64,000 nt of DNA from Obrimoposthia wandeli. Lineage: Eukaryota. The notes beneath the pieces were generated by a model that did not search any database, was not told the DNA's origin, and saw only the letters and a program-made list of their open reading frames with translations. Made by a program: the position numbers and the translations under genes. Below are positions 1 to 50,074 of the stretch, one piece after another. Location: positions 558,001-622,000 of the forward strand of contig CDROCS010002451.1 in the NCBI GenBank assembly GCA_977020255.1. The letters run 5' to 3'. Position 1 is the stretch's first letter. Every line of letters begins with the position of its first letter.

Positions 1-1
1 T

Positions 2-1254: not shown

Positions 1255-1284
1255 TATAAAAGGATGCGATTGTATTTGTTCAGT
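1255..1284 (+). promoter_or_regulatory. Putative PolB core promoter: TATAAAA (1255) and Inr-like TCAGT (1280)
   Basis: Canonical ~27-nt TATA-to-Inr spacing, ~20 nt before the predicted ATG at 1301. A TGCGTCA bZIP-type site lies just upstream. Confidence 0.5.
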
Positions 1285-1300
1285 CTTTTACTTTTCAATT

Positions 1301-6050: not shown

Positions 6051-8077
6051 TACATGTTATTACATCATACACACCTTCACTTATGCTGGTACCCCCCCCT
6101 TCTCTCATACATTTTGTGCCAGAAATGCCACATCCCCTTACTCACTTAAATTGTGGTACTTTTCGACCTTCTTATCTAACCACAATTGACATATAGTCTT
6201 GGTGTGTTCCAAGTGGAGTATTAGTGTGCAGTTACTATTTAAATGCATCTTAAAAATATTATTTAATACACTATTACTACTGATTTATTTGTATAAATTT
6301 ACCAATGTATTACGCAAATTAACAAAGCTAACGACGATTGCAATATTCAATAGTATCTGAACGTTTAAAAACATAATTCATGTTTATTACAAGTGATTCT
6401 AATTTTTATGACTTGTTTGATGACAATCACAAAAGGTTGGATGCTTAGTTCCATAAAAGTATGTAAAAATTCAGTAGTTCCGTATATGAGCCATGACCCA
6501 AATTGCTGTAATAAGAGACGGAAGTTATTGTTTATGTTAAAAATTGTAAATATAAAATATTTAATACATCCCACTGAACTTCATTAACGGCGTTTGATTG
6601 CTGCCTCAAAATTGTCGAAGAGATTGGATCTCCTTGCTGATACTGCCGAAGTTTCTGGACGAGTGGCTTCTCGGTTCTGGTGGGAAGTACAGTCTTCCCA
6701 ATTCTCAATCGAATCCTGACTAGTCAGGTCGATATATTTGGATCTCTGTACCCCACATCTCACATCCATTGCTTCTTCTCTTGGAGTTGAGCTGGCCAAT
6801 GGTGCTTCTTCTTTTAACAGCTGCGCTCTTGCTGCTGCTTCTCCTTCGTTTCCTTCGCTCACCACCGATGAGTCTTGACTAACCTCTTAAGGACGGACGT
6901 TACATAAATGTAAGATGAACAAAATCAAGCATGTTGTACAAAAATATATTTCTAGAAAAATTCCAATTGAATTGTCATTTGATAATAACATCCAATCGCA
7001 TTTTAGTATTATATAATTGGATGTTGAATGTCGTACGGTTTTATATAAGTGACAGCAATCCTCGTACTTTTGTTTAAACTGTAACCGAAATTTTATTTTT
7101 CTGATGTTCATCAATAAATTTAGAAATATTATGCCAAACTTTTCAAAATATCAAATAAATTCAATTTAAATAAGGTTTTTAAATTAAAATGGAAAAACAA
7201 ACAACATATTGTTGAAATGTTTTCTATTTAATATTTTAATTGACCAATTTAATTAATAACGATTAATCTGTAATCCTCCTATAATGCCCCCAACGTCAGT
7301 TCTATAAAATTATGTTTTATTGATAGTCTTGGTAGTAGCCGGTTAGGCTAAATATGATTTCAGTTCAAAAACAGTTTGGCTGAGCCTAGACCAGAGAAAG
7401 TTTGCATTTAGGAGTTGGACGACTCTGCTTCGAATCGACTTTTCCGACAAACAGCACGGGTCGTTTTCTGATTGGGTGTCGGCCCTCCTTTAGATATTTT
7501 ACTACTTCTCGACTTGTTCAAGTCGCCAACAGTGATTAGAAGTGGAGAAAAACGAATTATGCAAATCTTCGATTAGAATTTGTTTATTACAACAAAATTA
7601 CACTTTCTGTTAAAGTTACGAGAAGGACTATGACAATTTCGATAAATAGGTGGACGTCTCCAGGCTCTTTGGGTGTATTATAAGATTTTCAGTTTTAATG
7701 TGTCTAAAATGAGGTGAAAATGTATTTTCGGGTTGGGAGAAGGGACGGTTAAGATTAAAAAACACTAATACGTTTCTTTTTGTATATAATTCATAATTTC
7801 ATATACAGTGATTTAGTGCCGATGGTATGGTACAGTCGATACACGTGAGGAAAAATTGGGAAATTTCATAAGCTAAATGTTAAGCCAAGAATCGTTGGTA
7901 ATAGCTCAAAATCGCTCTTGATGGACTTCAAGTATCTTATTCTCTTAATCTTCCCATCTGAGTTCACCACCTTGACCTCTGTACTATTCGCTGTCAGTAA
8001 ACTATTCTTGTGCAGTTGGAAAGTGTATATATGTCTCGAAAACTCGGACATGTGTAGAATTTTATACACACATGCAA

Positions 8078-8174
8078 GAAATTTCACTCCATACACACAT
8101 GCATGGTTTCTAAGGACAGAGATACCGTATCTCCTAGGGAGATGGGTGGATTAGACCGGAAACACCCACTTACT
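8078..8174. repeat. Orphan terminus of the AGTAG/6-bp-TSD element family (same family as 16338-16510)
   Basis: GAAATTTCACTCCATACACACATGC...GGATTAGACCGGAAACACCCACTTACT matches the right arm of the 173-bp element. No partner end was found in the window. Confidence 0.75.
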
Positions 8175-9235
8175 TCAGTACAGTTCTTATTGTATAAATT
8201 AACATTCAATTCTTTACCTCACCATCTCATCAAAAAGATCCTCTCTGAATGGTCTTCTTCAAATGGGTCTGGTCCACATGCTTCTCTATGAATGCATCTT
8301 CCGATATTCTTGAATGACTGTTGTCGCTGGCAATTCACCTAATCAATGTTTAATCTTCAACAATTATGTTAGGATTAGGATTTGATAAATATTAAATAAT
8401 TGGTTTAATTTATATCAAAATAAAAGCCTTGAAAGCAAGGTCATAAATTAAATAAAAATTGTATTATTAAATAAATTAATAAAATTAAGACGGTAATTAA
8501 ATATTAAGGACCACGAAGGTCAGGTGTAAGCGTGTGTTGTATTTAAGGGAATTTAAATTTAACCAAAAGGCCCCAAAAAAAGAAAGAATATTGAGAACAC
8601 AGAAGCCAATTAAGAATAATTGAGCCCAGTGGAAAAGGAGAAATCAAAAAAGGAACTTAATCCATTAGTGCCATTAGCGCCACTGAAGAAATCCCGAAGA
8701 ATCCATTCAGCGACATCGGCAATCCAGCAACTGAGAACGAGGACAGCCGCCATCATCTGGAGGTAAGAGCACTTATACTAAGTGCAAAATTATTAGTTAT
8801 GTAGACAGCAGAAGAAATCCATTAATTCAGTGTGTGATTATCACAGCCGTCATCGCCAGGATAGCAAAGATATAATTGTGATTACAAATACCTGATTCCG
8901 CAGAATTCCGAGAAAAAGTTGAGAATCATAAATTGAGTCGGTAAGAGTCATAAAAAGGAAAAAGAAATTAATTATATACAGGACAAACATCTGCACCTAT
9001 AACGAGCAAACAGAAGACAACAGATCGAAGGAACACTACAATTGAACTACTACGGAATCCAGAGCAACCCACCGAACTGGAATCTGCCGACATCGGAAGG
9101 AATCTGCCTGACATTCGAGGAAACATATCGAGGACCGGATCAGCAGCACACGAAGCCAGCATTCCCAACTATTGGTGAGGCAGAAATATAGATGCGTCTA
9201 TTGGTAACAGGCGAATCTGAAAATATATTCTAAAA

Positions 9236-11140: not shown

Positions 11141-11401
11141 AAAAAGAATATTTGATTTGGACATTTTTGAATTCGGAGTAAACCCATAATTGTCCATATT
11201 TTAGAGCAACAGCTCTGTAAAATCTATAAACTAAAATTGCCCGCATTTTTTAGAGTGAAGACTCTAGCGCCCAAGCAAACCTAAACTTAAAATCGATACG
11301 TGGATCATCCCCACTCGTGTAGAGACTTACGGAAGTCTTAGGAATTACTGTAACTTTTTAGAAATACGTACTTAAACGTATTGCTTTGTGTTAGTCTAGT
11401 G

Positions 11402-14117: not shown

Positions 14118-16337
14118 GTCTAGTGTGTTAGTAATAAACGATTTCCTACAACTAGAAAGCATTGTTCTAAACCCTTCAGATTAAGACAAAACAACAAACC
14201 TTCAGATAAGAATAGAGACAGGCAACCATAGCATTAAGTAGGCCACAACCATCCTTAAGACCTGCTTCTATAGAACTCACGTTGGGGCCCTCCACTAAAG
14301 AGGATCTATAAGTTTCATATAGAAACCCCAACAATTACATTAAGTCTCTTACAGATTCTTTCTTATATACTTCACATCAGCTCTGCATACCTTTTTGTTT
14401 GTGCGCTTCAATGAACACAGACCGGATGCTTGCTCTTGTCGACTGGGCTTCTACCTGCGGAAATTCAACACAATTTAGTCAACACTCGACTTAACTCGGT
14501 GTTACTAACATATATGCCGGATGTCGCTAATTCATGCGATTTTCTTACTATATCTGGCTTGTGTGAATTTCTCAAGGATTTTTGTCGACCTAATCATGAC
14601 ATATTTGCAAATTCTTTTTTCATATTGTTTCTTTTATACTCGTAGACGTTTTAAGGCCTATCAAGGTTTTAATTTCTTTATCAGTTTGACTACATAAAAT
14701 GCCTAATTTAATTTTATTATTTAACGTTATTTTTACTTTAACTACCCGATTTTAATATTCATATTTAGAATCATTCTGCATTGTAACAGCTAGGTACTTT
14801 AATTACTTATATCAAATTATATTTTATTATTTGATATTGGTTATTGATATAATAACTTATTATGAAAAGTATAATTATTAAATTGTTGTATAAAATTAAG
14901 AAATTTAAAAAATCATACAACAAAATAATTTTAGATTATTATGAAATTATTTATTGTATTTTTTATTTATAATGCATCTAGGGCAAATTTCAACAATATT
15001 TATAATAAGTTAATTAATTATATAATTAATTTTCTTTTTTCGCAAAATTAGTTTTTTAACTTACAAGTTGAACTATAAATACTTCTATTTATTTAAGAAT
15101 TACTTTCTCAAAATAATTTAGAATTTTTAATATTCTCAATAAAATAAATATAATGAATATAATTTTTATTATTTCTCATCGTGTAAATACATATTTATTT
15201 TGAACTCGCACGAAAAGGCTTTGTGAAGTATAATATTTCACCATTATCTATTTATATGCCCAATTTCGTTCAATTCCGAGCGTCCAAGTTGAGAGCTTCT
15301 CCTTGTTAGTATACATCAATAAATTGGACCAAAAGTGAAGTAGAATTTTAGAATATTTCTACATTAAATCTAAATTTAATTAAAATGTTCACAATATTAT
15401 TTCTTTATTACAGTATATTCAAATGTCAAATTATTTAGTCTGGAAATATTTTAATTTGTACCGAAGTCTGTGTAACCAAGTGCTAGATCGACATAGATTT
15501 TTACCAATTTTTTGCAGCGCATAATTTCGATTTTCAGAAATAATTTGCATCAGCTGATCTTGCAATTAAAATTTCTCGACATATATACCAATTAACCGCA
15601 GAACTGTCTGTGAATAGAAGAGCTGACAATTTCTGGGAATTTATACTCTAGCACTCCCTGTTTTGACATTTAACTATATTCATTGAGATGGAATATGTTT
15701 CTAATTTATTCTTTATGTGATGAAATATTTGCCACGAAATTTCCTTGTAAAATTTGACTTCACACGAGATATAAGGGATAAAAAGCCTTTTAGTTAGATG
15801 AAACAAACATAGATACCTATATCGCGTTTCGATGGTTTTTGGTTGTCAAAATTTATAAACATTAATTAAATATATATTTTTGTATAAGATTTATTTGTTT
15901 GTTTCAATAATATTAGACCATTTGCGATTTTGAAGTTTCAAAATAGTCAGAATTATCCGAAATTAATAAAGTAAGTTATTTTATTTCTGAGATTCTTTTA
16001 TGATAAAAGTAAAAAGTTTAAGAAGACAAGATACCAGAAGAGAAGAAATATTAAATAATTAAATTAGCTTAAATAGAAAATCATTCGAGAAGTTCAGAAA
16101 CTGTGCAGACTTGAACTTGGGCGATGTTCACTCAACACTGAAACTCACCTCATCTGATTTTTACATGCTTCCTGCTGTGTCTACTGCCTTTTGTGGAAAA
16201 CATATCTTTGATAATGATAAAATTGATAATTTTCTTGTAAAATCACTGAATCTTTCTCAACAAAATCTAATAAAATCCTACATTGTGGACTGAATTGATT
16301 AATAATGACGTCGATTCAATATTTGATTGATTATGGT

Positions 16338-16510
16338 AGTAGGTGGATGTGTCCGGTCTAATCCACACCCCTTGTCCTTTAAAACTGTGCATGTGTGGAG
16401 TGAAATTTCACTCCACACACCTACACGAAATTTTACTCCACACACATGCACGGTTTTAAAGGACAGGGGGAGGAGGGGGCTGTGGATTAGACCGGACACA
16501 TCCACCTACT
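16338..16510. mobile_element. 173-bp foldback element with AGTAG...CTACT termini and 6-bp TSD (miniature Polinton-like element)
   Basis: 30-bp perfect terminal IR AGTAGGTGGATGTGTCCGGTCTAATCCACA, imperfect IR extending ~75-85 bp, TATGGT duplicated at 16332-16337 and 16511-16516. Confidence 0.88.
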
Positions 16511-16974
16511 TATGGTTAAAGTTAAAATAAATCCCTAGAACTATAAAATTTTCAGGGATGGATCTTGGGAGGAGGGTGTATGCCTAACCTCCTAAGAACC
16601 GTCTCACGATTGATAGAAAACGTTTTTCTATGCCATAAAATCTAATCTCTACTTTTTGTGTCATACATATTTGCATGTTTATCTATTTCAATAATCCATA
16701 TATTTGTGCTGTGTGGTGTATCAGCCTGTTAGTCGAGACAAGATACTTTATTATGACGCAATCTTCAACTTGTATGCTAATAAACGTCCTAGAAAAGTGT
16801 TTTGTTCAATCCACAAGCATGCATTTTATGGCAATGATATATTTATATTCCTATAATTGGAACATATAATAGTTTTACCCATTTTTTAAAATAATTCTAT
16901 TTTATTGCTATTTATAAAAATATATTTTTATATTATACATTTTATTTTAGAACATAACAGTTTAATAAAATATT

Positions 16975-29023: not shown

Positions 29024-29112
29024 ACACGAAATTTCACTCCAACACACATGCACGGTTTTAAAGGACAGTGGGGGGAGGGGTGTGTGGATTAGACCGGACA
29101 CATCCACCTACT
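29024..29112. repeat. Second orphan terminus of the AGTAG/6-bp-TSD family
   Basis: ACACGAAATTTCACTCC...TGTGGATTAGACCGGACACATCCACCTACT is nearly identical to the right arm of 16338-16510. Confidence 0.85.
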
Positions 29113-35833: not shown

Positions 35834-36045
35834 ATTTATTCTTATACATGTATATATATGTGTGAGTGTCTAACAAAGACAGTCACCAATACCTACAAAG
35901 ACAGTCACGTACTGCATCAATATTGCAAAAACCTGCAAATTTATGTAAATACCAATAATTTTAAAATAAAGACAAGTATTTCAAACACATATATTCCTTA
36001 AAATCACAAAGGAGAATAAAAATATGTACAACACATATAAAAAGT

Positions 36046-37597
36046 TTATACAACCTCGTCCGGGTATAAAAAGTGACCATAGGCGACTGAACGGTTTTTC
36101 TCCACCCACTTGCGCTTATCATCACTACTACTTAAGGCAATTTTACTTAACCTTACAGTAAAAAGTTGATGATTTATATACGTTGTTGTTGTACACGCTC
36201 GCTAACGGCACTCTCATATACGGCTAAGTAATTAGAGTGCCTAATACTCGTCTGTCGGAGACTAATACCTTTCGCTCTCATCTGAGATTCACCTTCTGTA
36301 GTCTCTAGGCTATATGATTTTGGTCGTAGAAAAATCCCTTGCCTATAACTAAATAATCCTTTACTCTCATCTTTAAATTTTCCTATCGCTGTATTAAGCG
36401 TCGTATAAAGCGGATGGGTTTTTGGAAATTTCGAGGTATCCAACAGTCCATCAGCAATCATAGCAGGTAACAGTGATTCTTGAACATTGACATTATTACA
36501 CTTCAAGAAAAAGCTATCAGTGTCACCCGCTATAATTCTAATGTCGCAGTTAAATTGAACTCGATATTTCTCCAACTGCTCATATTGTAGCTCATACATA
36601 CGAAGTTTGCTTAAATCTAATACCGCCTGGCCCATGTAACTAGGACGATCCAAAACAATATTTTCCTTATCCAGTAAAACTGCAATAAGGTCCGTATCGA
36701 TTTCGATTGTCCTACGAAAGTGGGCTTTACTGCAATAGGTAACCAGCTTCTGTGGAGTATTACAAATCCGGAGGTTAATTCTTTTCATCAGATTCTCAAT
36801 GAGTTTTCCAAATAAAGAATTCACCTTCAGTTTATAATAATCCCTCTCGAAATCTGTTGTAGCCGCAGCTCTTTTGAGAGAATTATCCTCAATATATTTT
36901 GAAAAAACATTAGTTTGTTCAAACTGTAATGCTCTATATACAAAATCTACCTTAGCACCAAGTCTAACGTACATTTGTAGCAATCTAGAATGCACAACAT
37001 AATGTTTCTTAGGGTAATGTGTTAATAACAATTTTTCAGTCTTACACCCTGGTGGACGCTGTTTAATGGGAGCAAGGGGAAGATCGTCGAATTTATTATG
37101 AAGCTCGAAGGGAATGGATAAATCTATTTCCAATAAATGAGCGAAGCGACTACAGGATAAATTTGCTGATTTTAAGCTGGAAATAATATTCCCAACTCTA
37201 ACCGATCAGTCACCCAGGAAAAGTTACCACAAGGTAAAAACTTGGACATAGCCCACCCGTACAAATTATTTACATCAATGTACAAAAGTTCTGTACCATT
37301 GATGGCGTCAACGCGGTGTTCATTAACAAATGTCATACCCCCGCGAATCCCAGACCGGAAGAGTCGGTACATTTCTGGATCCTGTATTAGCTCGACTCGC
37401 ACAACGGGAGCAGAAGAAGAAGCCGGACGAAGCAGGGATTTGAAAGCACTCGTGAAAGTCAGTCCTGGAAATAAAAACATTTATTAAAATCATTGTGAAA
37501 ATCATTACTTTGAAAATCATATATCTAACAAAGACAGTCACGCATCTATATTGCAAATACTTGCATCTTTATGTAATCAATAGTAACATTTATTCTT

Positions 37598-37680
<83 letters not shown>

Positions 37681-37758
37681 AGTATCTAACAAAGACAGTC
37701 ACGCATCTATATTGCAAATACTTGCATCTTTATGTAATCAATAGTAACATTTATTCTT

Positions 37759-37794
<36 letters not shown>

Positions 37795-40411
37795 GTATCT
37801 AACAAAGACAGTCACGCATCTATATTGCAAATACTTGCATCTTTATGCAATCAATAGTAACAAGTACTACATTTATTCTTATACATGTATATATATATAT
37901 ATGTGTTAGTGTCTAAAATTAGAAAAAATTAGAAAAATACAAACCAGGGATGGAGAAGAAATTGAGAGGCTCCAATCCATCGTCAGCAATGGCCTTGGTC
38001 CGGAATGCTGTAAATACGTCTGCTAGAAGGTAGACGTCCATCTTCATATAGACCAGCATATAGTCCCAGAGCGATGAGCAGCCGCTCTGAGTCCAGACCA
38101 TCTTCGCCATTTTATATTGTGCTGGCTTGATCTTCTCATCCCACTTTGGCGGTAAGCTGGTGATTGCGCGAAGAGCAGTCTCTGATACTGCCATATCGTA
38201 TGGGAAGATTCCCTTGGCGCTCACCAGATGTTGCGGGAAGACCGAATGTGTAAGAGGAGTCACACCCAGGTTTTCCACAAGTTTTTCAAGTCCGCTGTTC
38301 AAAAATTGAAGGGAATCGATGAAACGTATACAGACTCCTCCAATATACACCATCATAGCCTGGAATTTCTCTGTTGATTGAGGTATAACAGATACATTCC
38401 AGTCAGGAAACTTGCATAGTGCGTGCTTCAATATATGGTGCATGTCATAACCCATAAGATTGTGAAAAATGACGGGAAAAGATCGATTGATTCTCCTTGA
38501 TAAGTTGCATTTCGTATGCGCTGCTCCCAGGTATTCGCCAGTCATGTGATCGTGATCTCGAACTTTGTTTGCGACTTTCTTCTTACACAGATAATAGATT
38601 CTTGCTGCATTGAAACTCAATACCTGTTCCTGTGTGAGTTGTCGCATCTCCTCGATCGCATGCTTCTTGTACCATGGGAGTACAACCTCTTTCGCCAAGT
38701 CCTCTAATTTCTTCAAAAAGGATAACACACAAGATTCTCCGGTAAAGACCGAGTTATCATGTGTATACCCTCTCGTGGCTGCAACGGGAGACATGAGCAT
38801 ACCGGCCGAGATTGGAAGCTGAATCTGATGGTGGATTCCATGCGGCGGTAGCACTGCCTCAAAGTCCGCGTAAACAGCAAAAGGCGGAGAAATCGTTTTT
38901 GAAAAGTCCTTAAACTCAATATGCTTCTCTGTAGGCATTGAATAAAGCGTTGTATGATCTAAATTCATCCTACAGTGTGGAACGTGTTTGGCGTAACTTA
39001 TTGGTCTCCGGAAGCCATGAAGACACTTATGGCACCAAGTACACTGGATGCGATTAGATACACCTCTGTTCCTATAATTAAGCAGCCTATTGAGTTTAGG
39101 AATACCGACATAATGAAAATTATCATTATTTTCTAAAAGGAGAAGATTGATTGGCTTAGCGTCCGGGTTTGTGGTTCTGTAAATGACATCCACATAGGGA
39201 TTTTTGAAGATATCCCCATCTGTTTGCACATTAGAGAACCTATTGAATGTAAATACGTTGATTGAGAGAGATGGATTCTTTCTCTCAAATCGCGGTATAT
39301 TACATAGACGCATCGGCATCTCATTCTCATCAAAAACTAATTGACTCAAAAAGGCATCATATTGATTAACCCGATGAGGATTAGAGCGAAATACTTTGCG
39401 GAAAAGTACAGATAAGATACTGTAAAGGAATCAAAAAGCGTTTGAGTTCTGCACATTGATAACGCAATGTGAGAGTGCTAACTCAGATGGAGTAGGTATA
39501 TAACTACTTCCCTGGAGATAGTTCATTGTCGTTGTTTTAGTCACAACAAACGAAATCTCCAGGAAGCGGTTCACTACCCAATTACTGCTACTTTGAGAAT
39601 AATTCTCAATCTTCTTGTTGATCCCATCTACTCCCGCATCTATAAACCCCTCATCTATGGGGAGCCCTCTATTGGAAAAATTCCAAGCGCGTATTTCTCC
39701 AATATTGGAAAATTCAACACGCACCCCGAATTGAACCTTGCAAGTCGCAAACTTGCTGACTGTGTCCCTTAAGCTAGTCAAAAGGGATACAGGAACTTGT
39801 AAATCGATGAGATTGTCATTAGAAACATCTAATGACAATGTCTCAATCGTGCCCCGAAGACTAGTATTACGCTTAACAGCATCAACCCTGGAAAACTTCG
39901 CAACAGAGCTACCTGAAGTGGACATAACACTTCTCTTGCGGGTAGATGCTGGTAACGGCGCGGGGATCATACCAACTGGAGGAGGCATAACTGGAACCAT
40001 TGATGCAACAGATGGTGGCGAAGCAACTGGACTAGTAACTGGAACAGCAGCAATTGGGGCAGATACTGGAACAGTAGTAGAAATTGGGGCAGCAATTGGC
40101 GAAGCAGCAACAACTGGACCAGCAACACGAGAAATAGTAGCAGATCTATTCTGAAAGATGGCCTTCTTGCCACGTTGCTGGAAATGACGAAGATGGACAC
40201 AATGACGCGCCACAAACTCCGACCAATCAATCTCCTCCGCGGAGAGACATACTGGACATACGTAGAATTGTTGTCCGTTGAACTTCTGTCCAAAGTAGCT
40301 CTTCATTTTTCCGTCACATTCCTTGTGACTCTCCTCGAAGCATAATTCTTTGTTCATATTGCAATTCTAGAAAGAAAGAAATTAGCAGAAAAATAACAAT
40401 AAACTTACCAT
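36046..40411 (-). pseudogene. pPolB, complement join(36046..37464,37945..40366,40409..40411), disrupted
   Basis: Same motifs as copy A, with intact GDTDS. Lesions: in-frame TGA at 39431-39433, -1 G near 37192, and a ~7-nt deletion near 36176. Confidence 0.95.
37524..37916. repeat. Three ~105-bp units plus variable (TA)n inside the PolB intron, homologous to the element's terminal region
   Basis: CTAACAAAGACAGTCACGCATCTATATTGCAAATACTTGCATC... starts at 37524, 37685 and 37798. It matches 35834-35915 directly and 49180-49277 inverted. Confidence 0.92.
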
Positions 40412-40542
40412 TTTCAATTTCGTTTATAATAGGGGATTATTTGTTGATTGATGCTTGCTTATATACTATTTTCGAGCTAGTATTAAGCCAATCAGATTCA
40501 TTCATTATTTAAACCAACCAGATTAATTTAAAACAGAATAGT

Positions 40543-41052
40543 TTACTGACAGATGTCAGTAGTTGAATTTTCATTAATATTTAAATAATCCAAACTAGCT
40601 GCAAAGCATTTCTTGTATGCACAATGCTCGCCATGTTTAATATATGGACAATTGATATTTGATGGATTTAATTGTTTTAATGTTTTCGAGTAATTTATCA
40701 CTCTAAATTCAGGAAAATATTTATTGATTGTCTTTATTTTAGCTCCATTATTTTCATCCAAAACATAGAAAATTGATTTGGATACATCACAACAACGTTT
40801 TATTTCCTCAGTTATTTCTTGTATCTTGAAATAACTATTATCATCAACTAGTTTTAGTCGATGGTAATGCTTAATGAGATATCTATTTATTTTTCTTGAT
40901 TTTCTATTCATCATGTCCCATATGGGTTGCATTTTAAAAACATAATGTTTAGGATAGAAGATTGCATCCACATCCATTATACATAGTTCTTTTATTACAA
41001 ATTCAGTATTATTATCAATAAAAGCTTCAAAATCAATAAAATAAACAGACAT
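40543..41052 (-). CDS. Conserved Polinton protein (169 aa) with DEDD exonuclease-like ExoI motif and C-terminal CxxxxHxxHC
   Basis: MSVYFIDFEAF...FVIKELCIM. Intact ORF, conserved in element A. Confidence 0.8.
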   Translation of the reverse strand: MSVYFIDFEAFIDNNTEFVIKELCIMDVDAIFYPKHYVFKMQPIWDMMNRKSRKINRYLIKHYHRLKLVDDNSYFKIQEITEEIKRCCDVSKSIFYVLDENNGAKIKTINKYFPEFRVINYSKTLKQLNPSNINCPYIKHGEHCAYKKCFAASLDYLNINENSTTDICQ

Positions 41053-41088
41053 TTTTATAGCAATAATTTTATTTGATATTGTTTATAT

Positions 41089-41466
41089 CTATTGTTTATG
41101 CTTTAACCAAAGCAGACAGAGTTGTCCACATGACTGCGTTAAAACATTTTGATAATGTTTCTTACTAAAATGTACTTTCTTTCCAGAGTCAAGTACTGTA
41201 GATACTAATTTAGAAGGGTAATATATCCCAAAGGGGTCAAAAACAAAGATTTCATTTTCTTTAACATGTATTGCAATCCAATGTTCACCACGCAAATTAG
41301 ATGAATGTGTATTGATTACATATCCACCTACTCGAGTCAAAGAGGGGATGTGGTCAAGGCTGTAGACTCCATTGAAACGCGAACCGAGTAGTTTTCTTCC
41401 GCTTTTTGTTATCTCGTCCGAACTAGAATATATATTAATTAATAAATTCAAACTGACTTACTTCAT
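41089..41466 (-). CDS. Adenain-like protease, complement join(41089..41422,41462..41466)
   Basis: ATGAA|GTAAGT, 39-nt intron, CTAG|TTCGGACGAG gives MNSDEIT.... GEHW, FDPFG, YQ and SCGQLC are present. Confidence 0.9.
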
Positions 41467-41497
41467 TTATATATCTTCTTTATTGTTTTCATTCTGT

Positions 41498-42726
41498 TTA
41501 TACTAGTACTGTTCCTCCCTTGGTAATTTGAACCTCAGAATCGAATACTCCATAGATTATAATATTAGTAGGGTGTTCAAGTGCTTTTGAAAACTTGATT
41601 TCTACTTTCAAATTTCCCTGTTTAGGGATTTGAGCTTGATTAATATCGAAATCAGGAGAGAGAAAAAATGTGAACAGTGTATACTTGTCCTTGAAATCAG
41701 TCATTGAAATTCCAATATTAGCATCCTTATCCAAATGACCAAGATTTCTAATTAAAGATTGCACATAAGAAAACACATAATCATCGTTTTCAAAGTCATT
41801 CGTATAAGATTCTTGATAATCAATATTTCGTGTAAGTTTAATTGAACTCACATTCATGTGTCCAAATTGAGAAACCTCATTTTTAGACTCACCTCCATAG
41901 GTAGACGTGTTTTGGAAAGCAATTAAAACAAAGTTTGGAAGTTGCATATCACCAAAAATCTGATCCTTGTAATAAGATAGTGCTCCCGTATCGATAGCGT
42001 GAGAAACAAGATTAGTTTTTCTAATAGGATAACATGCATTTTGCTTCTCCAACCCCATTCGATGTGCAACGAGTACAGATGGTTCCACCTTTACTCGTCG
42101 AACCAGCAGTTTTGCTTCCGTAATCTCAATTGCGGTTTTAATAGTATCAGCGCAAACAACACTAAAACCTACTGGATTTCTCTTCATTCGAATATGTGCA
42201 CTTACACCGGGTAAAAGATACTTTGGTTGCTTAAAGAAATCCAAATGGAGACTCCCACAAAGTGACAATACTTTAGACTTTGCAATCGAAGCAATTCTTC
42301 TTTTTTCATCATTGTCAAACCCAATTGCATCAAGATTAATCAATTTCGTATCATTACCGTAATTCAACAATGTTTCAATCATTGCTTTATGACTGTAACT
42401 AGTATTATTTCCCTCAACTTTCACATTATTGAGACTGAGAATCACATCCTTGAAAAGAGTATGCAACATGTAATTAGCTGATTTGATATCCATACCATCA
42501 TTCAAATCACCTCCACCTTCCTTTGTAACTTTCAATTTAACGAGAAATAAACTATCATTCAAATCAAGATATTGAGTATTGGATCCATTAATATTGAATT
42601 CTAAATCCGGAGAAGATGTCCTGTTAACCGTATTTGTCGGAAAATTTCTTCAAAACTAGCACTATCAACCACAACCTGAGGTATAGGTTTATCGAATATA
42701 CACAATTCAGTTTTAGCACAACTCAT
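41498..42726 (-). CDS. Major capsid protein (double jelly-roll, ~409 aa) with one -1 frameshift in a T-run near 42643
   Basis: Starts MSCAKTELCIFDKP..., typical of Polinton MCPs. Continues YLDLNDS, HTLFKDV, ETLLNY, GSLHLDFFKQPKYLLPGV after restoring one base. Confidence 0.92.
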
Positions 42727-43088
42727 TACTTAAAAATTGTTCCACCTAGTTTCAAACGTTTGTTTATACCCGATGCTTTAGATGTTTTCTTACGTTTATA
42801 ACCACTTCCCTTTTGAGTTTTCTTTTTCAAAAATTCAGCTAGACTTGGTGAAATTTCATTCACCTGATCCAAGGCTGCATCCTTTAGTGTAGGAAGAAAT
42901 TTCTCATCACTTGACAAGTATTTTGATCCAACATTAGCAATAAATTTCCCGAGTCGCTTGAGTAGTGGGAAAGCAAAGCGACCAAAAACCTTCATCCATC
43001 CTGATCCATACTGTTTTCCCGCAAAATAAGGCAAATCACCTCCTTGCATCGGTTTACTATACGCATCGATTATACTTGAATCAATCAT
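42726..43088 (-). CDS. Small basic protein with amphipathic helix (adenovirus pVI-like / membrane-active Polinton core protein)
   Basis: MQGGDLPYFAGKQYGSG followed by WMKVFGRFAFPLLKRLGKFIANVGSKYLSS. Located between penton and MCP. Function inferred. Confidence 0.75.
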   Translation of the reverse strand: MIDSSIIDAYSKPMQGGDLPYFAGKQYGSGWMKVFGRFAFPLLKRLGKFIANVGSKYLSSDEKFLPTLKDAALDQVNEISPSLAEFLKKKTQKGSGYKRKKTSKASGINKRLKLGGTIFK

Positions 43089-44107
43089 AATTTACGAAAA
43101 TGAACCGTTAAACTTGTTTTAGCTCCGTAAGCAAATGTAATTAATCTTCCAGAATCATTACGTATATTAACTTCAATATTGTTTATAGAAGAAGAACTCA
43201 CGGGAATATACATTGGATTTTCAATTGGAATATGTATAACATCACCATACTTGTGCTTTTCCTGTTGAACCCAAATTGCTTTAATTAAGGGAAGTTTCCT
43301 TCCTCCTACGAATATTGGTTCGGTAATACTCGTGTAGATATAAATCTGATTATATGCATTAGTCATTTTAGGAATAATCTTTGCTTTGAAAACCTCATTT
43401 TTATTTTCAATGTCATTTTCATCAAAACCGATAATTGAGGCTAATGATTTATCCATGATGATTTTATCAATATTGGATTTCAATTTGAAATGAATCAATT
43501 TATTAACTAGTTTAAAGTTTTCAAATACATTTGGTAACACTGTTTTAAAATGTTTACACATACTTTTGCTATCGGCAAAAAGAAAATCATTGGGAACTGA
43601 ATATATTTTCCTCTCGCGTTTAACGAATCTGTTTTTTATCTTGAATGTAATTATCGGATACTTGACATGATTATCCATAATTTGTGAAACTGCATGCTTA
43701 CCTTTTTCAACGTTAGGCGGAAATCCATATTGTTCTGCAACAATTTCATCATTAAAAACTATTTCAAAATTATCCCCTTTTCCAATAATTTGAATTCGAT
43801 TCTCTTTATTTAAATAGATTGTGAAATCATCGCCTGACTTAATACGAGCCAAATCCATTTGACCCTTATCAAATAGTAAAGTCACATCAGTTACTTTATC
43901 AGCTTCACGTTGAGTAATATATTCAATCTCAGTTTCACTTTGAATAGATAGAGGAGAGTAATTGAAAGAAAATTCCGTAAGAGCAGCTTCCCAAGCACCA
44001 GGTAAATTGATTGAGCTTTGATAATCAATACTAAAACTATTAGCAGTATTATTCGGTTGAGTTAATGGCGAACCATTACTTGGTAATACAACATACATTG
44101 AGTTCAT
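43085..44107 (-). CDS. Minor capsid protein (penton, single jelly-roll), ~340 aa
   Basis: YVVLPSN...NT.NSF...INLPGAWEAAL N-terminus and IYIYTSITEP...NPMYIPV...IEVNIRNDSG C-terminus. Start placed at the ATG overlapping the integrase stop. Confidence 0.9.
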   Translation of the reverse strand: MNSMYVVLPSNGSPLTQPNNTANSFSIDYQSSINLPGAWEAALTEFSFNYSPLSIQSETEIEYITQREADKVTDVTLLFDKGQMDLARIKSGDDFTIYLNKENRIQIIGKGDNFEIVFNDEIVAEQYGFPPNVEKGKHAVSQIMDNHVKYPIITFKIKNRFVKRERKIYSVPNDFLFADSKSMCKHFKTVLPNVFENFKLVNKLIHFKLKSNIDKIIMDKSLASIIGFDENDIENKNEVFKAKIIPKMTNAYNQIYIYTSITEPIFVGGRKLPLIKAIWVQQEKHKYGDVIHIPIENPMYIPVSSSSINNIEVNIRNDSGRLITFAYGAKTSLTVHFRKL

Positions 44108-45119
44108 TCTATTTGAGAAGCTAATATCCAACTAGGTTCAGTATATCCATGCCACTTAACATGATATTGTTTATGCTTTCCTCTACCTTTTGTCTCTAAA
44201 ATTTCTTGGATTCTATATACATTTGGTTTCTCAGGCAAGACTTGTAATTCCTCATGATAAAATTTACCCGTGATTACATTATTGGTTTCATCCTCAATGA
44301 AATACATTACCGGCATACGTTTATTATCAATTTTAGTTATACGAAATACTTCATCGCTCCAATTCTCTTTGAAATTCTTTATAAAAGGAGTAGTACTAAT
44401 TTGAGAAATACGTACATAATCACCAACTTTATACTTGGGTATCCGCGCAACTTGACTTTGGTTACGGCGTTGCCAAATTTCCATAGCATTCTCATCTGTA
44501 ACATCAACGGGTCTCTTTCGGTCTAATGATGAGTGTTCACTATGATTGTATGCATGTATTATTTGAGGTAAAACAGTAACCCAGGACTTATTTCCCTGCT
44601 TTTCAAACAATCTCTCAATGTTCGATTAAAACGTTCAACTAAAGCGGCTTTATATTGGGAAAATACTGAGTAATGATTAATATTATGTTTTTTCAATAGT
44701 GTTTCAACATGTTTATTATAAAACTCCTTTCCACTATCCGTTTGGAAATTTCTTGGTTTTATTTCTTTAATCAAAAGCTTCATTGCGGTTAAAACATCGA
44801 TACCAGACTTAGACTTTAATGGAATAGCTCGCGCGAATCTGCTAAAGACATCAACACAAGTTAAAATATATCGATATCCGTCGTTAATACTCGCATACGG
44901 AATCATTTCCATCAAATCTGCTTGCCATAAATCATTCGGGCCGCTCGTTTTGTATGATCTCGTTGGGAACCGACGTCTCATTGGTTTGTTTAAGCTGTAA
45001 GCTAATTGATTTCTCAACCACGCCTGAGTTTCCTGCTTTGTCTTCTTTGACTCTTTTGCTAATTTTGAAACCCCTGTGTAACCAACGGGGTGACTTGGAT
45101 CGAACCATATTTTCTCCAT
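44104..45119 (-). pseudogene. Retroviral-like (rve) integrase with C-terminal chromodomain; frameshifted by a short deletion near 44611
   Basis: WFDPSHPVGY, WQADL, FQTDSGKEF and VERFNRTL (D-D-E triad), then the chromodomain-like YRIQEILE...YHVKWHGY...SW. Confidence 0.93.
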
Positions 45120-45216
45120 TGCAGCAAGACGATTTGATTTTTAAATTGAATTTAGGAATAGATGGAAGTGATCCCATACATAAATTCATATTATTGATTC
45201 GAATTTATGTTTATAA

Positions 45217-45636
45217 TCATCGGTTTATTAGTCTACTAGCAAGTGCACCAACTATTGAGCTAATAATTGGTACGCGAAATCCTAAAAATCCACCACTTTG
45301 TTTATAAAGCAACTTACGTTTACCGATTCGTGTTTTGGCATGAAACAAAGCAAGTAGAGGTTTCTTATGCCGATTCAGGTTAGCCTTGACAATTATTTTA
45401 CCAGAAACTATTTTCTGTATCATATTAAGTAAATCATCAATTACAAAAGTAGGGAATGATTTAAGAATAGCTGGGCGGCGAATAGCAGGTGCACGCATGA
45501 GAGAATTGAAATAGGCAATACTCCTAGATTTCTTAACAGTTCTTTTCGATTTTTGAGCAACCATTTTCCTTGCACTTAAAACTGATTTGATCAATTTTTT
45601 AACTTCGGGTTTAACAGTTTCCTTTTTAAAATTCAT
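45217..45636 (-). CDS. Conserved basic Polinton protein (139 aa) ending in KQSGGF plus a hydrophobic helix
   Basis: Lys/Arg-rich, and resembles the widespread Maverick ORF that ends QxGGFL...; located between ATPase and integrase. Confidence 0.75.
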   Translation of the reverse strand: MNFKKETVKPEVKKLIKSVLSARKMVAQKSKRTVKKSRSIAYFNSLMRAPAIRRPAILKSFPTFVIDDLLNMIQKIVSGKIIVKANLNRHKKPLLALFHAKTRIGKRKLLYKQSGGFLGFRVPIISSIVGALASRLINR

Positions 45637-46283
45637 CTTCTCAAAACTGGTTTCTTTGTTTGTTTATAGACGGTTATTCCCGATGGATTGAATACATCAG
45701 TTCTAACTCTAAAGTCATCGGGACAATCTTGAGTAAAATCAATAAAAATGTATCCATGAGGAATAGTAGTTGCATCTTGAAATGAATCAATTAAAAACTT
45801 TCTATTATTCGGGTAAGCTTGTCTTGAAACAAAATCAACAACCGTCTGATCACGTGGATTCTTGAAGAGAACAAGGTAATATACATTTAAATTACGAGTT
45901 CTATGGTTCCCTCCTTGATGAAATAGATTTTGTGTGATGAAAATAACAGTTACTTCCCGATGTCGTGCTATTTTAGTGAATAAATTATTGAAATCACTCT
46001 CTTTATTTGCTTCTTGATATAAATCATCAATAACAATAACATCATGTCGTTGTAATCGCTCAGACCAATTATCATCGAATCCATTAATGACTTTTATATT
46101 TTTGATTTTCTTAAACTCTTTACTGGTTAAATCAGCTTCTCCATCTCCTCCCTGATGCCAGTATATTTTATTAAACTTAAAACTAAAGTATTTATTATTT
46201 TGCAGTAATTTACATACAAAATGTGTTTTCCCACTACCACTAGGACCTACAATCTGAAAAACTGAATTATTTTTTAAGTTCAT
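45633..46283 (-). CDS. A32/FtsK-HerA-like DNA packaging ATPase (216 aa)
   Basis: Walker A GPSGSGKT, Walker B VIVIDDL, ARH...IFITQNLF and RxxxLN. Intact. Confidence 0.95.
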   Translation of the reverse strand: MNLKNNSVFQIVGPSGSGKTHFVCKLLQNNKYFSFKFNKIYWHQGGDGEADLTSKEFKKIKNIKVINGFDDNWSERLQRHDVIVIDDLYQEANKESDFNNLFTKIARHREVTVIFITQNLFHQGGNHRTRNLNVYYLVLFKNPRDQTVVDFVSRQAYPNNRKFLIDSFQDATTIPHGYIFIDFTQDCPDDFRVRTDVFNPSGITVYKQTKKPVLRR

Positions 46284-46330
46284 ATTAAAAATATTAGATT
46301 ATCGGGATAATGTTTATAAGACAAAACTAT

Positions 46331-46609
46331 TTAAAATATTTTATTACGAAACATCCAGCAACAAACAATAAAAAAACTCTTCTCGTAGAAAAAGCTCCTT
46401 TTCTCTTCTTTGTTTGCGAGTTTCTTCTGATTGTATCCCTGAATGAGAAGATTGACTGCCTTGTCGTGCACCATTCTTCTTACGTGCTCCTCCAGGGGTA
46501 GATTTGAGACATCAATGAGTTGCAGGACATCTGGTTCTATGACATTCTTCGAGATGACGCTCTTCACCGCCTTGTCAACATCTTGCTTGAAATAGTTTGG
46601 AGTAGACAT
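46331..46609 (-). CDS. Accessory ORF, 92 aa (MSTPNYFKQD...), unknown, hydrophobic C-terminus
   Basis: ATG at 46609 with a TATA-like TATATAAG upstream. No recognisable domain. Confidence 0.5.
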   Translation of the reverse strand: MSTPNYFKQDVDKAVKSVISKNVIEPDVLQLIDVSNLPLEEHVRRMVHDKAVNLLIQGYNQKKLANKEEKRSFFYEKSFFIVCCWMFRNKIF

Positions 46610-46679
46610 AATGATGATGAAGAAGTAAAAAGTAATCTGCTTATATACTATACATCTGAAATCTGATTGGTTAATAAAT

Positions 46680-46790
46680 ACACTGACTAATAAAGACACT
46701 AAAGACACTGACTAATAAAGACACTGACTAATAAAGACACTGACTAATAAAGACACTGATTAATAAAAACACTGATTAAAGATAAAGACG
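46680..46790. repeat. 16-bp tandem repeat CACTGACTAATAAAGA (about 6 units) between the phosphatase-like gene and the next ORF
   Basis: Directly visible. Confidence 0.9.
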
Positions 46791-46798
46791 AATAAAAT

Positions 46799-47581
46799 TT
46801 ACACATGATAACGATTAAAAATACGTATTTGATGAAGCATAGCTTCATTAGGAGCAGCAATAGTCCGTTTAGCTTTAACAAGATTCGAAGCAGCAGTAAC
46901 ACCAATCGAATGAGATAAAAATGCAATAACAATGCAAGCAGCATGTAAACTACCATAATGACCACATACTAAAATCTTACCACCATTTTCGATAGTTTCT
47001 TTAATTATATTATTAGTCTGTTTATAATACTTCATTATTGTTTCTCCTAATTTTGAGTTTACAAAGACAGAAGTATATTTTAATTTCTTATAATATATTT
47101 TATCCAGTATAGATGTATTGATTACATGAGTGAAATTGGAGTTCAAAAGATTAGTTTCATCAAACCCATCTCGATAATTACCAATATATAATTGATTTAC
47201 TAAAATCTCACTCATCGCTGTTTTGTTTAACTTTTCTACATTATGTTGAGTAAATCTAGCACTAAACAAACTATCAAAAAGATGGGTCATGTGGTTCATT
47301 TCCATACTCAAAGCATGAGCTATTATGGGTTCCATAAAAGCCAAAGCATTTAAAAAATCTATCCGTCTCTTATCTTCAATAATTGGATCTATAATAATTT
47401 CTTCTTCTATCGTCACTTCATCAATAGTTTCTTCTCTTCTTATAACTATTGTTGTTGTTGCTGGTGGTGGTGATGTTACTGATGATGTTGCTGGCAATGA
47501 TGTTGTTGACGATGATATTGCTGGTAGTGATGATGTTGTTGGCGATGATGTTGCTTCTGGTGCTGAATTGATTTTCTCCAT
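46799..47581 (-). CDS. Dual-specificity phosphatase-fold protein with a dead active site (STYX-like pseudophosphatase) and Ser/Thr/Pro-rich then acidic N-terminus
   Basis: SEILVNQLYIGN, FTHVINTS, GGKILVCGHYGSLHAACIVIAFL and VKAKR...PNEAMLHQI align to DUSP hallmarks. HCxxGxSRS is replaced by CGHYGSLHA. Confidence 0.85.
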   Translation of the reverse strand: MEKINSAPEATSSPTTSSLPAISSSTTSLPATSSVTSPPPATTTIVIRREETIDEVTIEEEIIIDPIIEDKRRIDFLNALAFMEPIIAHALSMEMNHMTHLFDSLFSARFTQHNVEKLNKTAMSEILVNQLYIGNYRDGFDETNLLNSNFTHVINTSILDKIYYKKLKYTSVFVNSKLGETIMKYYKQTNNIIKETIENGGKILVCGHYGSLHAACIVIAFLSHSIGVTAASNLVKAKRTIAAPNEAMLHQIRIFNRYHV

Positions 47582-47614
47582 TTTATCAATTCCGAGTCAA
47601 TTTAGTCTTATATA

Positions 47615-47858
47615 TTAAACAAGGTTTGATTTCATTGGAGCATCAGTTTCATCATATGATTTGATTGGAGTATTATTCAACCTTTCCATTGTACTTAACA
47701 TCTCATGTAAATGTAGTTGATGACGTAACCTAAAGAGTTAAATAAACTACATATAAATATTACTCATGATTATTTTTCCTAATTAAAGCATTGAGAATAA
47801 CTGAAGCAAGATCTTTTAATGCATCCTGAACCTCTTTACATTCAATAATTTCATCCAT
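47615..47858 (-). CDS. Predicted spliced accessory ORF, complement join(47615..47729,47764..47858), 69 aa, helical
   Basis: GA|GTAATA, 34-nt intron, TTTAACTCTTTAG|G joins two otherwise separate short frames (MDEIIECKEV...NNHE-LRHQLHL...SNLV). Confidence 0.45.
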
Positions 47859-48019
47859 TTTATGATAAAGCAAATCAAATATTGTTTATAACCTATGAAA
47901 AATCTATTTTTAGACCACAACTATTTGCAACATTACAACGTTTGCAACTATTTGCAAGTAATGACATGTGATGTCTTTGTCTTAGTATAAACAATATTTT
48001 GATAATGATTTTATTGAAA

Positions 48020-48220
48020 ATGGATAATCAAAATAATCAAAATAATGAAAGTAGAGCTAGTACATACATAGGTTCCGATAGTAATTTATATTCTAATATG
48101 AATTATAATAGAAATAATCAGAGAGAAAATATTAATCCATCAAGTCAAACAATAACAAGTCCTACGCGCGTAACCGAAGAACGTGAGCCCTTTAAGGATA
48201 TGACTAATACTAGACGATAA
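48020..48220 (+). CDS. Asn-rich accessory ORF (66 aa), unknown
   Basis: ORF only; low complexity. Confidence 0.3.
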   Translation: MDNQNNQNNESRASTYIGSDSNLYSNMNYNRNNQRENINPSSQTITSPTRVTEEREPFKDMTNTRR

Positions 48221-48333
48221 ACAAGAATGTTAACCAATTGAGACTAATCGATTTTCATAAACAAGAATATCGACCAATTAGAATCGAGCTTTAGAGGATA
48301 AACAATTGAATATTTCAATTTATAATTGTCAAT

Positions 48334-48723
48334 ATGAATTTAGAAAAGCTATATCAACCTATGCATACATATTATGGATATGAGATGCACTTTTTGAAGA
48401 AAGCTCATAACTATAATTTTATTTTTCCCGTCAACATCGAGTCGCTTAAATTTGATTTTGAAATATCAAATTTGACTTCTGTGGATAAAGAGAGAATCAA
48501 TATTATCTTGACTCAATTCGGAATCAACTATGCGCTTCAGGAAAACAAATTCGTAATCAAAGGATCAACTGCCACTTTCAAGCATGAGAATGGAACAATA
48601 TACGAAGCACCTCCTCCTAAGCTAGAATGGATTATCTCAATCAGAATTCAAGGATGCAAGATCGGGCCCAGTGGATTGGAAACTCCGATATGGAAAATAA
48701 TTGATGCTGTTAGAGTTGACTAA
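48334..48723 (+). CDS. Accessory ORF (129 aa), globular, beta-rich, unknown
   Basis: Intact ORF with protein-like composition inside the element. No motif firmly recognised. Confidence 0.6.
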   Translation: MNLEKLYQPMHTYYGYEMHFLKKAHNYNFIFPVNIESLKFDFEISNLTSVDKERINIILTQFGINYALQENKFVIKGSTATFKHENGTIYEAPPPKLEWIISIRIQGCKIGPSGLETPIWKIIDAVRVD

Positions 48724-48790
48724 TAAATTGTTGTGTCTTTATTTGTATTATTTTATATATATAAACAATAGTGATACTTTAATATTTATT

Positions 48791-49156
48791 ATGAAAATGA
48801 CTAAAAAACCTACTAAATCATTAAAGACTAAGGTTAAAAAGACTATGAGTAAAAAGACTATGAGTAAAAAGAAAATCATTGAGGGTTTGGGTATTCATAT
48901 GATGGCAGCAAATCTTTTAGGTAGATGGTTTGGTGGAGTTGATAAAAAAGCTATAAAGCACAAAAAGAATGTGGATTATTTGAGAGGTATACAAAATCAG
49001 AAACGAGTGCAAAAAGGAGATGGTATACAAAAAGGGGATGGTATGCTTGATATTTTTGTAAAATTAGATAAACTTACAAAAGCATTTGAAAAGAATCCTA
49101 GTGCCTATCTTGGTCCAAAACTAAACTTTTTAGCAAACCAACCAAAAACTTTGTAA
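48791..49156 (+). CDS. Lys-rich accessory protein (121 aa) with two amphipathic segments and two QKGDG motifs
   Basis: ATG at 48791 in the 48701-49156 frame. Basic N-terminus, GLGIHMMAANLLGRWFGG, QKGDGIQKGDGMLDIFVKL. Confidence 0.65.
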   Translation: MKMTKKPTKSLKTKVKKTMSKKTMSKKKIIEGLGIHMMAANLLGRWFGGVDKKAIKHKKNVDYLRGIQNQKRVQKGDGIQKGDGMLDIFVKLDKLTKAFEKNPSAYLGPKLNFLANQPKTL

Positions 49157-49164
49157 TTACATTG

Positions 49165-50074
49165 CAGTACGTCTTTGTTAGACACTCACACATATATACA
49201 TCTATAAGAATAAATGTAGTACTTGTTACATTAAGATGCAAGTATTTGCAATATAGATGCGTGACTGTCTTTGTTAAATATAGGAACGTTTAAACATTAT
49301 TATCAAATTATATAATACTTTATTTTATAAGTAGATAGTTTAATTTAATTTAAATAAATTTATCAAATTATATAATACTTTATTTTATAAGTAGATAATT
49401 TAAATAAATTATAAAACACACACACGATATGTATTTTGTTGAATTGGTGTTAATACAGTCTTTAGATAAAAAGATATATAGATTTAAAGTATGTTACTAA
49501 AAATAGAATCTTTTTGACCTCACCATGACCTTAAGTTGTCCTCATAACGTCATGACCTTAACTTGACCTTAACTTGCCTTGACCTCATGAGGTCATGACC
49601 TACATCTTGTCCTCATCGTGACCTTAAGTTGTCCTCATGAATTTTAATAAAAAATCATGTGTACTCGGGAGAAATTTGACCTACATCTGTCATAAAAAAT
49701 TTGAGTTCAAAAATTTTCGCGCTAATTTCAAAAATTTCATGGAAATTTCAAACATTTTCAAAAATTTTCGCGCAAATTTCAAAATAATGACCTTCAGAAA
49801 TCGACTGAAAACACCCTAAATCAACCAAAATTTGAATACGCGCCAATCAAATTTGATGTATTTAAACAAAAATTTATTTAAATAGATGTACTATAGTACA
49901 TAATGACCTTCAAATGACCTTGACCTTAAAATATCACGTGTACTCGGGAGAAATTTGACCTTGACCTTGACTTACATCCGTCATTGACACTAATTTTTTT
50001 TTAATTTAAAAAAAAATTGAGTTTTCGCTAGGGGGACCTTTTTCCTTGAGTCGAAGTAATCACTTCTCACTACT
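49165..50074. repeat. Right terminal (inverted) repeat region of Polinton B, with internal duplications and about a dozen TGACCT motifs
   Basis: Inner part matches the left-end remnant in inverted orientation; ends in ACTACT. The extent is inferred because the left TIR is mostly missing. Confidence 0.7.

What the first reader, a model, noticed from the sequence alone, without database searches (positions are those of the whole stretch)
16332..16516. 173-bp gene-less element with Polinton-type ends and a 6-bp TSD
Two arms form a near-complete foldback with 30 bp of perfect terminal IR, flanked by TATGGT on both sides (seen in sequence). 5'-AG...CT-3' ends with a 6-bp TSD are the Polinton integrase signature (established). 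Its first 14 nt (AGTAGGTGGATGTG) match the element B terminus (AGTAGTGAGAAGTG) at 10 of 14 positions. Non-autonomous Polintons I know of are kilobases long. This looks like a minimal MITE-scale parasite of the Polinton integrase, and possibly of protein-primed replication (inference).
Basis: partly seen in the sequence, partly recalled or inferred. Interest (0 to 1): 0.78.

Follow-up and report, generated by a model that had tools for sequence, protein, structure and literature searches.

The report
Collapsed Polinton ends mimicking a MITE
This 173-bp foldback is one of several hundred gene-less stubs made from the two ends of a very abundant virus-like Polinton transposon, and most probably arose when longer copies collapsed onto their own hairpin ends rather than by spreading as a tiny parasite.

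Summary
Observation confirmed: window 16338-16510, 30-bp perfect TIR, TATGGT on both sides. The TIR is Polinton: 17.5- and 17.4-kb elements with the same tip and their own 6-bp TSDs carry pPolB, integrase and packaging ATPase. The partner is not window element B. The tip has 15,282 exact hits; 473 units of 133-224 bp exist; 33 of 50 sampled have exact 6-bp TSDs. Self-propagation is not shown. The unit is a hairpin end found about 4,100 times, mostly on long copies, plus one extra tip. Short units come in the same two types and proportions as those ends (26% vs 24%). Nine of 50 carry copied host flank, and one 'perfect MITE with TSD' is the end of a 14-kb element that copied its far end. Best reading (0.55): solo-TIR-like collapse that inherits the parent's TSD. 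Rivals: freely integrated copy-back molecules (0.2), true MITE (0.2). The scan noted kilobase fold-back Polinton derivatives in other genomes before.

The parts
16332..16337 (+). Left copy of the 6-bp target-site duplication (TATGGT)
   Evidence: family-wide 6-bp length
16338..16367 (+). 30-bp Polinton TIR tip. In the best model this is the tip gained by template switch (far end or own end)
   Evidence: origin inferred
16368..16372 (+). Shortened C/G run, the likely switch point. The short form is enriched on this arm of short units
16373..16401 (+). Second arm of the parent's internal hairpin (one-repeat arm), with a 2-nt deletion in this copy
   Evidence: (I2, I8)
16402..16451 (-). Two 25-bp subterminal repeats. 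The 8-bp palindrome GAAATTTC at 16402-16409 is the hairpin centre ('2+1' type)
   Evidence: (D3, I8)
16452..16480 (-). Outer arm and long C run of an ordinary family end, read on the minus strand
16481..16510 (-). 30-bp Polinton TIR tip, the original end in the best model
16511..16516 (+). Right copy of the 6-bp TSD (TATGGT)
29024..29112 (-). Orphan end of the same family; no partner tip in the window or the 10 kb before it
   Evidence: (D20)
8054..8174 (-). Diverged end of the same family
6589..6882 (-). Internal fragment of the partner Polinton family, 85-90% identical to fetched long copies
36033..50074 (-). Element B: a different Polinton family (pPolB pieces, protease-like, integrase, ATPase). 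Not the partner; left limit approximate

Best explanation
The unit is a 'solo-TIR' remnant of a high-copy Polinton family. Shown: many long copies of the family end in tip, C run, then a hairpin whose second arm runs back toward a G run. That second arm is a direct repeat of the far TIR. Shown: on integrated copies, DNA synthesis leaves the template at this point and copies a tip plus 12-207 bp of host flank from the same end, the far end or a neighbouring copy, then returns. Inferred: when the switch goes to the far end and does not return, the interior is lost. What remains is tip-hairpin-tip between the two TSD copies that the integrase made for the long element, much as a solo LTR keeps its provirus's TSD. 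Inferred: this could happen during gap repair right after integration, when both ends are together, or later in chromosome replication. The window copy is a free-standing 2+1 unit of this kind and most likely has no function of its own.
For: Hairpin centre: 4,703 exact hits against 439 short units of 133-193 bp; 10 of 15 hairpin loci are ends of longer elements. Hairpin types genome-wide are 1,015 '1+1' and 3,131 '2+1'; short units split 116:323, Fisher p 0.38, about 11% and 10% per class. C394:367270-381350 (14.1 kb, TSD CACGCA) has at its left end a full 170-bp unit with an exact 'TSD', then about 35 bp copied from the far flank, then subterminal sequence. Six of 50 units have an inverted copy of their own flank; for 4 of the 6 a long parent with a TSD was found. 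C176 copied a neighbour's flank and C90 carries left flank at both ends. The short C run is on 23 of 44 one-repeat arms against 10 of 59 long ends and 6 of 42 two-repeat arms. No identical pair among 630 pairs of 36 units, and no pair shares two core variants. The one uniform short subfamily is a single insertion copied with its carrier: 20 of 20 have the same flanks.
Against: No locus was found in both long and short state. The only duplicated insertion tested had two filled copies, both short, and the window flank is single-copy. A star-like copy set is also what a MITE burst gives, and the core has only 1.4 changes per copy. C runs also change in passively copied units, with one shortened run in 20, so run diversity is weak evidence. 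The C-run cut-off of 11 nt was chosen after seeing the distribution; the preset cut-off of 9 gave 10 of 44 vs 4 of 59, p 0.04. The ratio test compares size classes with sequence patterns of different stringency. The in-place events caught are switches that returned, not finished collapses. For 2 of 6 inverted-flank units no parent end was found.
Confidence: 0.55

Rival explanations
1. Copy-back by-product. During replication of free linear copies the polymerase folds back at the hairpin end and makes a 150-190-bp molecule with two tips, which the Polinton integrase inserts with a fresh 6-bp TSD. Each unit is a real integration but not a self-copying lineage.
For: Predicts the same constant ratio per hairpin type and the short C run. 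Own-end fold-back is shown on integrated copies. An 11.2-kb element with the same end type on both sides, inverted duplicated genes and an exact TSD exists (C4).
Against: Every switch product that could be traced carries host flank, so it formed on integrated DNA.
Confidence: 0.2
2. True Polinton MITE. One or a few short founders were amplified in trans by the Polinton integrase, perhaps after protein-primed replication.
For: Sharp size peak: 323 units at 163-193 bp against 34 at 194-224 bp and 37 at 73-103 bp. 47 of 50 share one internal layout and most have different 6-bp TSDs. Both tips are intact. Empty sites are real in 30 of 30 paralogues of one insertion.
Against: It needs several founders amplified in the same proportion as the long hairpin ends. 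No identical copies or sub-lineages, unlike the 116 identical copies of a young mosquito MITE (PMC3814204, abstract). A unit with a perfect TSD can form without its own integration. The only uniform subfamily is passive.
Confidence: 0.2
3. The ends belong to a non-Polinton transposase family with 6-bp TSDs, or the units are assembly or library fold-back artefacts.
For: TSD length alone is not diagnostic: Polintons are given 5-8 bp (PMC10748475, passages), and a hAT group with 6-bp TSDs is recalled, not checked. Hairpins can cause chimeric reads (own knowledge).
Against: All 7 long pairs with a TSD hold Polinton genes. No other transposase family was hit among the 23 ORFs scanned. Copied flanks and tips have diverged from their templates, for example three changes in the outer tip at C90 and a 3-bp indel at C394, so the events are old.
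Confidence: 0.05

Closest known systems
Polintons/Mavericks (polintoviruses)
   Same: AG...CT tips, 6-bp TSD, TIR identical to 17-kb elements with pPolB, rve integrase with chromo-like tail and A32-type ATPase. Published range 13-25 kb, TIRs 100-1,500 bp, TSD 5-8 bp (PMC10748475, passages).
   Different: 173 bp, no genes. The family has thousands of ends with an internal hairpin and at least 15,282 exact tips in one genome.
TIR-only Polinton insertions and TIR-mediated rearrangements in C. elegans (bioRxiv 10.1101/2024.01.15.575659, passages)
   Same: Polinton TIR sequence without genes; recombination between TIRs proposed to rearrange the locus.
   Different: There a 744-bp TIR at a few loci; here hundreds of two-tip units with their own TSDs and traced template-switch intermediates.
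MITE birth by microhomology-mediated internal deletion (Gnome/Elf/Goblin from Ozma; PMC3814204, abstract)
   Same: Short two-ended derivative made by deletion between short homologies.
   Different: There one birth is followed by amplification (116 identical copies). Here the data fit many births with no demonstrated amplification, and the parent is a Polinton, not Tc1/mariner.
Solo LTRs; fold-back inversions; copy-back defective genomes (own knowledge; PMC7467729 seen as search listing only)
   Same: Collapse between direct repeats keeps the original TSD; hairpin-primed synthesis gives inverted flank copies.
   Different: The direct repeat is created by a hairpin inside an inverted-repeat end, not by LTRs.

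Membership tests
Polinton/Maverick (parent family) | Protein-primed family B polymerase between the same TIRs | tested here: met
   PF03175 E 5.5e-18 in the 17.4-kb C12 element and E 2.8e-8 and 5.5e-10 in the 17.5-kb one; frames are interrupted
Polinton/Maverick (parent family) | Retroviral-type integrase | tested here: met
   PF00665 E 1.5e-8 and 6.4e-9
Polinton/Maverick (parent family) | Packaging ATPase | tested here: met
   Pox_A32 E about 2e-6, above the curated cut-off
Polinton/Maverick (parent family) | Adenovirus-type protease and jelly-roll capsid proteins | tested here: inconclusive
   No Pfam hit. The protease candidate is 53% identical to a window ORF with a weak Peptidase_C5 hit. 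Capsid candidates were labelled by position and recalled motifs only, not folded
Polinton/Maverick (parent family) | AG...CT ends with a 5-8-bp TSD, here 6 | tested here: met
   6 of 10 chosen long pairs exact and 1 with one mismatch; 33 of 50 short units exact at 6 bp, at most 1 at 3-10 bp
Autonomous Polinton (the 173-bp unit itself) | Encodes pPolB and integrase, 13-25 kb | tested here: not met
   173 bp; no ORF of 100 aa or more there
MITE | Short, non-coding, TIRs shared with an autonomous partner, TSD | tested here: met
MITE | Many dispersed copies of similar size | tested here: met
   323 at 163-193 bp and 116 at 133-162 bp
MITE | Amplified by transposition of the short form itself | tested here: inconclusive
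   No identical copies or sub-lineages; formation in place shown; no long/short allele pair
Protein-primed minimal replicon | Free, terminal-protein-capped short molecules | not testable with these tools
   Only an assembly and contig-level runs were available
Ginger1/Ginger2 | 4-bp TSD (PMC2836005, passages) | tested here: not met
   0 of 50 exact at 4 bp

The most novel reading that the evidence does not exclude
The 150-190-bp hairpin is itself a substrate of the Polinton machinery: a two-origin, gene-less minimal replicon that is copied by protein-primed synthesis and inserted by the integrase. It would be a Polinton MITE and would define the minimal cis signal for Polinton integration. I found no such element in nine literature searches.
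Probability: 0.2. Interest if true: 0.75.

Novelty: new variant of a known kind. Interest (0 to 1): 0.5.

Why it matters
How Polintons integrate, excise and decay is mostly inferred. This genome holds thousands of copies of one family with traceable intermediates, so end-to-end template switching on integrated Polintons can be counted directly. It also gives a caution for annotation: a short TIR element with a perfect TSD in hundreds of copies need not have transposed in that form. If the short form does move, it marks the smallest end sequence the Polinton integrase accepts. A 61-bp unit with a 6-bp TSD was also seen.

Tried and rejected
Element B as partner: rejected, different tip and 58-68% integrase identity. 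TSD lengths other than 6: rejected. Search for an empty or long allele of the window site: the flank has only its own hit. Test for long and short states of one insertion inside a 1,023-copy carrier: two filled copies, both short; uninformative. A uniform 101-bp subfamily first looked like a true MITE burst; 20 of 20 fetched copies have the same flanks and no TSD, so it was copied passively. Comparing tip variants between arms, by eye, did not separate own-end from far-end copying. Read-level evidence is missing: three contig-level runs of one study hold the stretch and none was laid, so polymorphism and artefact status rest on the assembly. My recollection of named miniature Polintons in C. 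elegans was not confirmed. Kapitonov and Jurka 2006 is not held. Sizes 104-132 bp, below 73 bp and above 224 bp were not counted.

Full report
Observation. The element spans window 16338-16510 (173 bp) with TATGGT on both sides. The outer 30 bp are a perfect inverted repeat; inner arms and two 25-bp repeats around the palindrome GAAATTTC complete the foldback, which folds at -75.4 kcal/mol, z -16.8. The description is correct.

Whose ends. The first 27 nt have 7,723 + 7,559 exact hits in the 1.35-Gb own genome, control 0. I chose 10 inward-facing tip pairs 8-20 kb apart from the first 100 listed hits; 6 have an exact 6-bp TSD, 1 has one mismatch and 3 have none. Two of them, C12:33969-51481 (17.5 kb) and C12:59056-76485 (17.4 kb), carry protein-primed polymerase B, an rve integrase and an A32-type ATPase, with interrupted frames. 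All 7 pairs with a TSD hold genes of this family. The tip is therefore a Polinton tip. Window element B is a different family: its integrase is 58-68% identical and its polymerase about 45%, so the 10-of-14 match is only a family-level likeness. Remnants of the true partner in the window lie at 29024-29112, 8054-8174 and 6589-6882.

Short copies. Requiring exact 14-nt tips at both ends gives 323 units of 163-193 bp, 116 of 133-162 bp, 34 of 194-224 bp and 37 of 73-103 bp. These are lower bounds, and other sizes were not counted. Of the first 50 listed of the 323, 33 have an exact 6-bp TSD and 40 at most one mismatch; lengths 3-10 give at most 1 exact; shuffled pairing gives 0.08. The other classes give 8 of 15 and 11 of 15 exact. 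For one insertion inside a 1,023-copy carrier, 30 of 30 paralogues show the empty site with one copy of the hexamer. Forty-seven of the 50 share the window copy's layout: two repeats on one arm, one on the other ('2+1').

The hairpin is mainly an end of long copies. The hairpin centre has 4,703 exact hits; 10 of 15 fetched loci are ends of longer elements, where tip, C run, hairpin and G run are followed by subterminal repeats. Elements of 1.0, 4.2 and 9.1 kb have this end on both sides and their own TSDs. The short unit equals this end plus one more tip. Genome-wide the hairpin is 1+1 in 1,015 and 2+1 in 3,131 exact hits (24.5%). Short units split 116:323 (26.4%; Fisher p 0.38), or about 23% after allowing for class purity (12 of 15 and 47 of 50, counted by eye). 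About one short unit exists per ten hairpins in both types. The two counts use patterns of different stringency.

Births caught in place. Six of the 50 have, instead of a TSD, an inverted copy of 30-207 bp of their own flank. Four are ends of long elements that have a TSD: C8:139380-151042, C142:211992-228622, C376:598148-601128 and C406:245291-258733. For two no parent end was found. At C394 I predicted, then found, that a 170-bp unit with an exact CACGCA 'TSD' is the left end of a 14.1-kb element: the sequence after it copies about 35 bp of the far flank, then subterminal sequence resumes. At C176 the unit copied 12 bp of the flank of a neighbouring short copy. At C90 both ends of a 20-kb element carry 87 bp of the left flank. 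That makes 9 of 50 with copied host DNA; one more (C420) is unresolved. Copies and templates have diverged, which argues against library artefacts, though no reads were laid.

Junction scar. The C run next to the tip is short (11 nt or less) on 23 of 44 one-repeat arms, 6 of 42 two-repeat arms and 10 of 59 long ends (p 2e-4). I set this cut-off after seeing the gap in the distribution; the preset cut-off of 9 gave p 0.04 and 0.03. This fits a switch at the G run. Against leaning on it: C runs also vary among passively copied units, with one short run in 20.

Is the short form amplified? Among 36 units with a TSD (one of a duplicated pair and three of other layout left out; the C394 unit was kept in by a missed motif, and the window copy is included), 0 of 630 pairs are identical, 3 differ by at most 2 edits, and no pair shares two core variants; 6 of 7 recurrent variants also occur in long ends. 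Power is low (1.4 changes per 95-nt core), and a burst from one master would also look star-like. The only uniform short subfamily (about 101 bp) is one insertion copied with its carrier: 20 fetched of the 37 listed all have the same flanks and no TSD. No site was found in both long and short state.

Mechanism. Shown: Polinton ends; a 6-bp TSD; hairpin ends on long copies whose second arm is a direct repeat of the far TIR; returned template switches to own, far and neighbouring ends on integrated DNA. Inferred: unreturned far-end switches, or deletion between the direct repeats, leave the short unit inside the parent's TSD (0.55). Free copy-back molecules inserted by the integrase (0.2) predict the same ratios and cannot be excluded. 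A self-amplifying MITE (0.2) is favoured by the sharp size peak and intact tips but has no direct support. Another family or artefact: 0.05.

Literature. Nine searches showed no Polinton MITE or hairpin-end collapse in their listings. Passages read: bioRxiv 2025.02.07.637071, bioRxiv 2024.01.15.575659 (TIR-only Polinton insertions in C. elegans), PMC10748475, PMC2836005, PMC6431247, PMC4028283, PMC8504770. Abstract and outline only: PMC3814204. Listing only: PMC7467729, PMC5499653. Kapitonov and Jurka 2006 is not held; Pritham 2007 and Repbase entries for non-autonomous Polintons are recalled, not seen, and short entries may exist there. No supplements were read; those of the two preprints are closed and could list short Polinton derivatives. 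Earlier scan notes (unchecked) describe kilobase fold-back Polinton derivatives in other genomes; nothing was noted for this genome or this sequence. My reading was recorded before those look-ups.

Verdict. A real, Polinton-derived, MITE-like unit. It meets the shape criteria of a MITE, but mobility of the short form is untested and the evidence leans to repeated collapse. New variant of a known kind; interest 0.5.

Noticed in passing
G000: 15,282 exact tips of one Polinton family, roughly 7,600 elements' worth of ends; far above the low copy numbers I recall for animal Polintons.
   Followed up: partly
L031-L032 (C4:80006-91214): 11.2-kb element with the same end type on both sides, inverted duplicated terminal genes and an exact TSD: a large fold-back derivative.
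   Followed up: partly
L206, L207, L208, L121-L122, L129-L130: Kilobase elements with hairpin ends on both sides, 46-bp tandem repeats and CACCA microsatellite inside the ends; two of 13-14 kb hold no genes of the family, one holds LTR-retroelement-like frames. These may be the main non-autonomous form.
   Followed up: partly
L196 (C636, about 61.6-62.0 kb): A 61-bp two-tip unit with a 6-bp TSD repeated at least three times inside a 16-bp satellite.
   Followed up: no
L210-L229: A 101-bp remnant without TSD sits in an unidentified carrier repeated on many short contigs, often two or three times per contig.
   Followed up: partly
L047: A second Polinton family with at least 1,023 copies of one 23-mer; it hosts insertions of the first family and is nested in one of its copies.
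   Followed up: no
window 1-5377 and 36033-41719: Two related Polinton gene sets in opposite orientation, 71-87% identical; element B also has a dual-specificity phosphatase gene at 46799-47581.
   Followed up: no
window 8367-11346 and 29132-31245: Two copies of another repeat with internal tandem arrays (48-bp and 55/56-bp units), each starting within 200 bp of an orphan end of this family.
   Followed up: no
TSDs favour a pyrimidine at position 3 and a purine at position 4 (54 of 68, both orientations of 34 TSDs).
   Followed up: no
C1715:551078-551154 and C6066:12175-12394: Short elements sharing only the first 14-16 nt of the tip, with different inner arms: probably derivatives of related families.
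   Followed up: no
window 12187-13332 (-): ORF with a weak Spin-doc zinc-finger hit.
   Followed up: no
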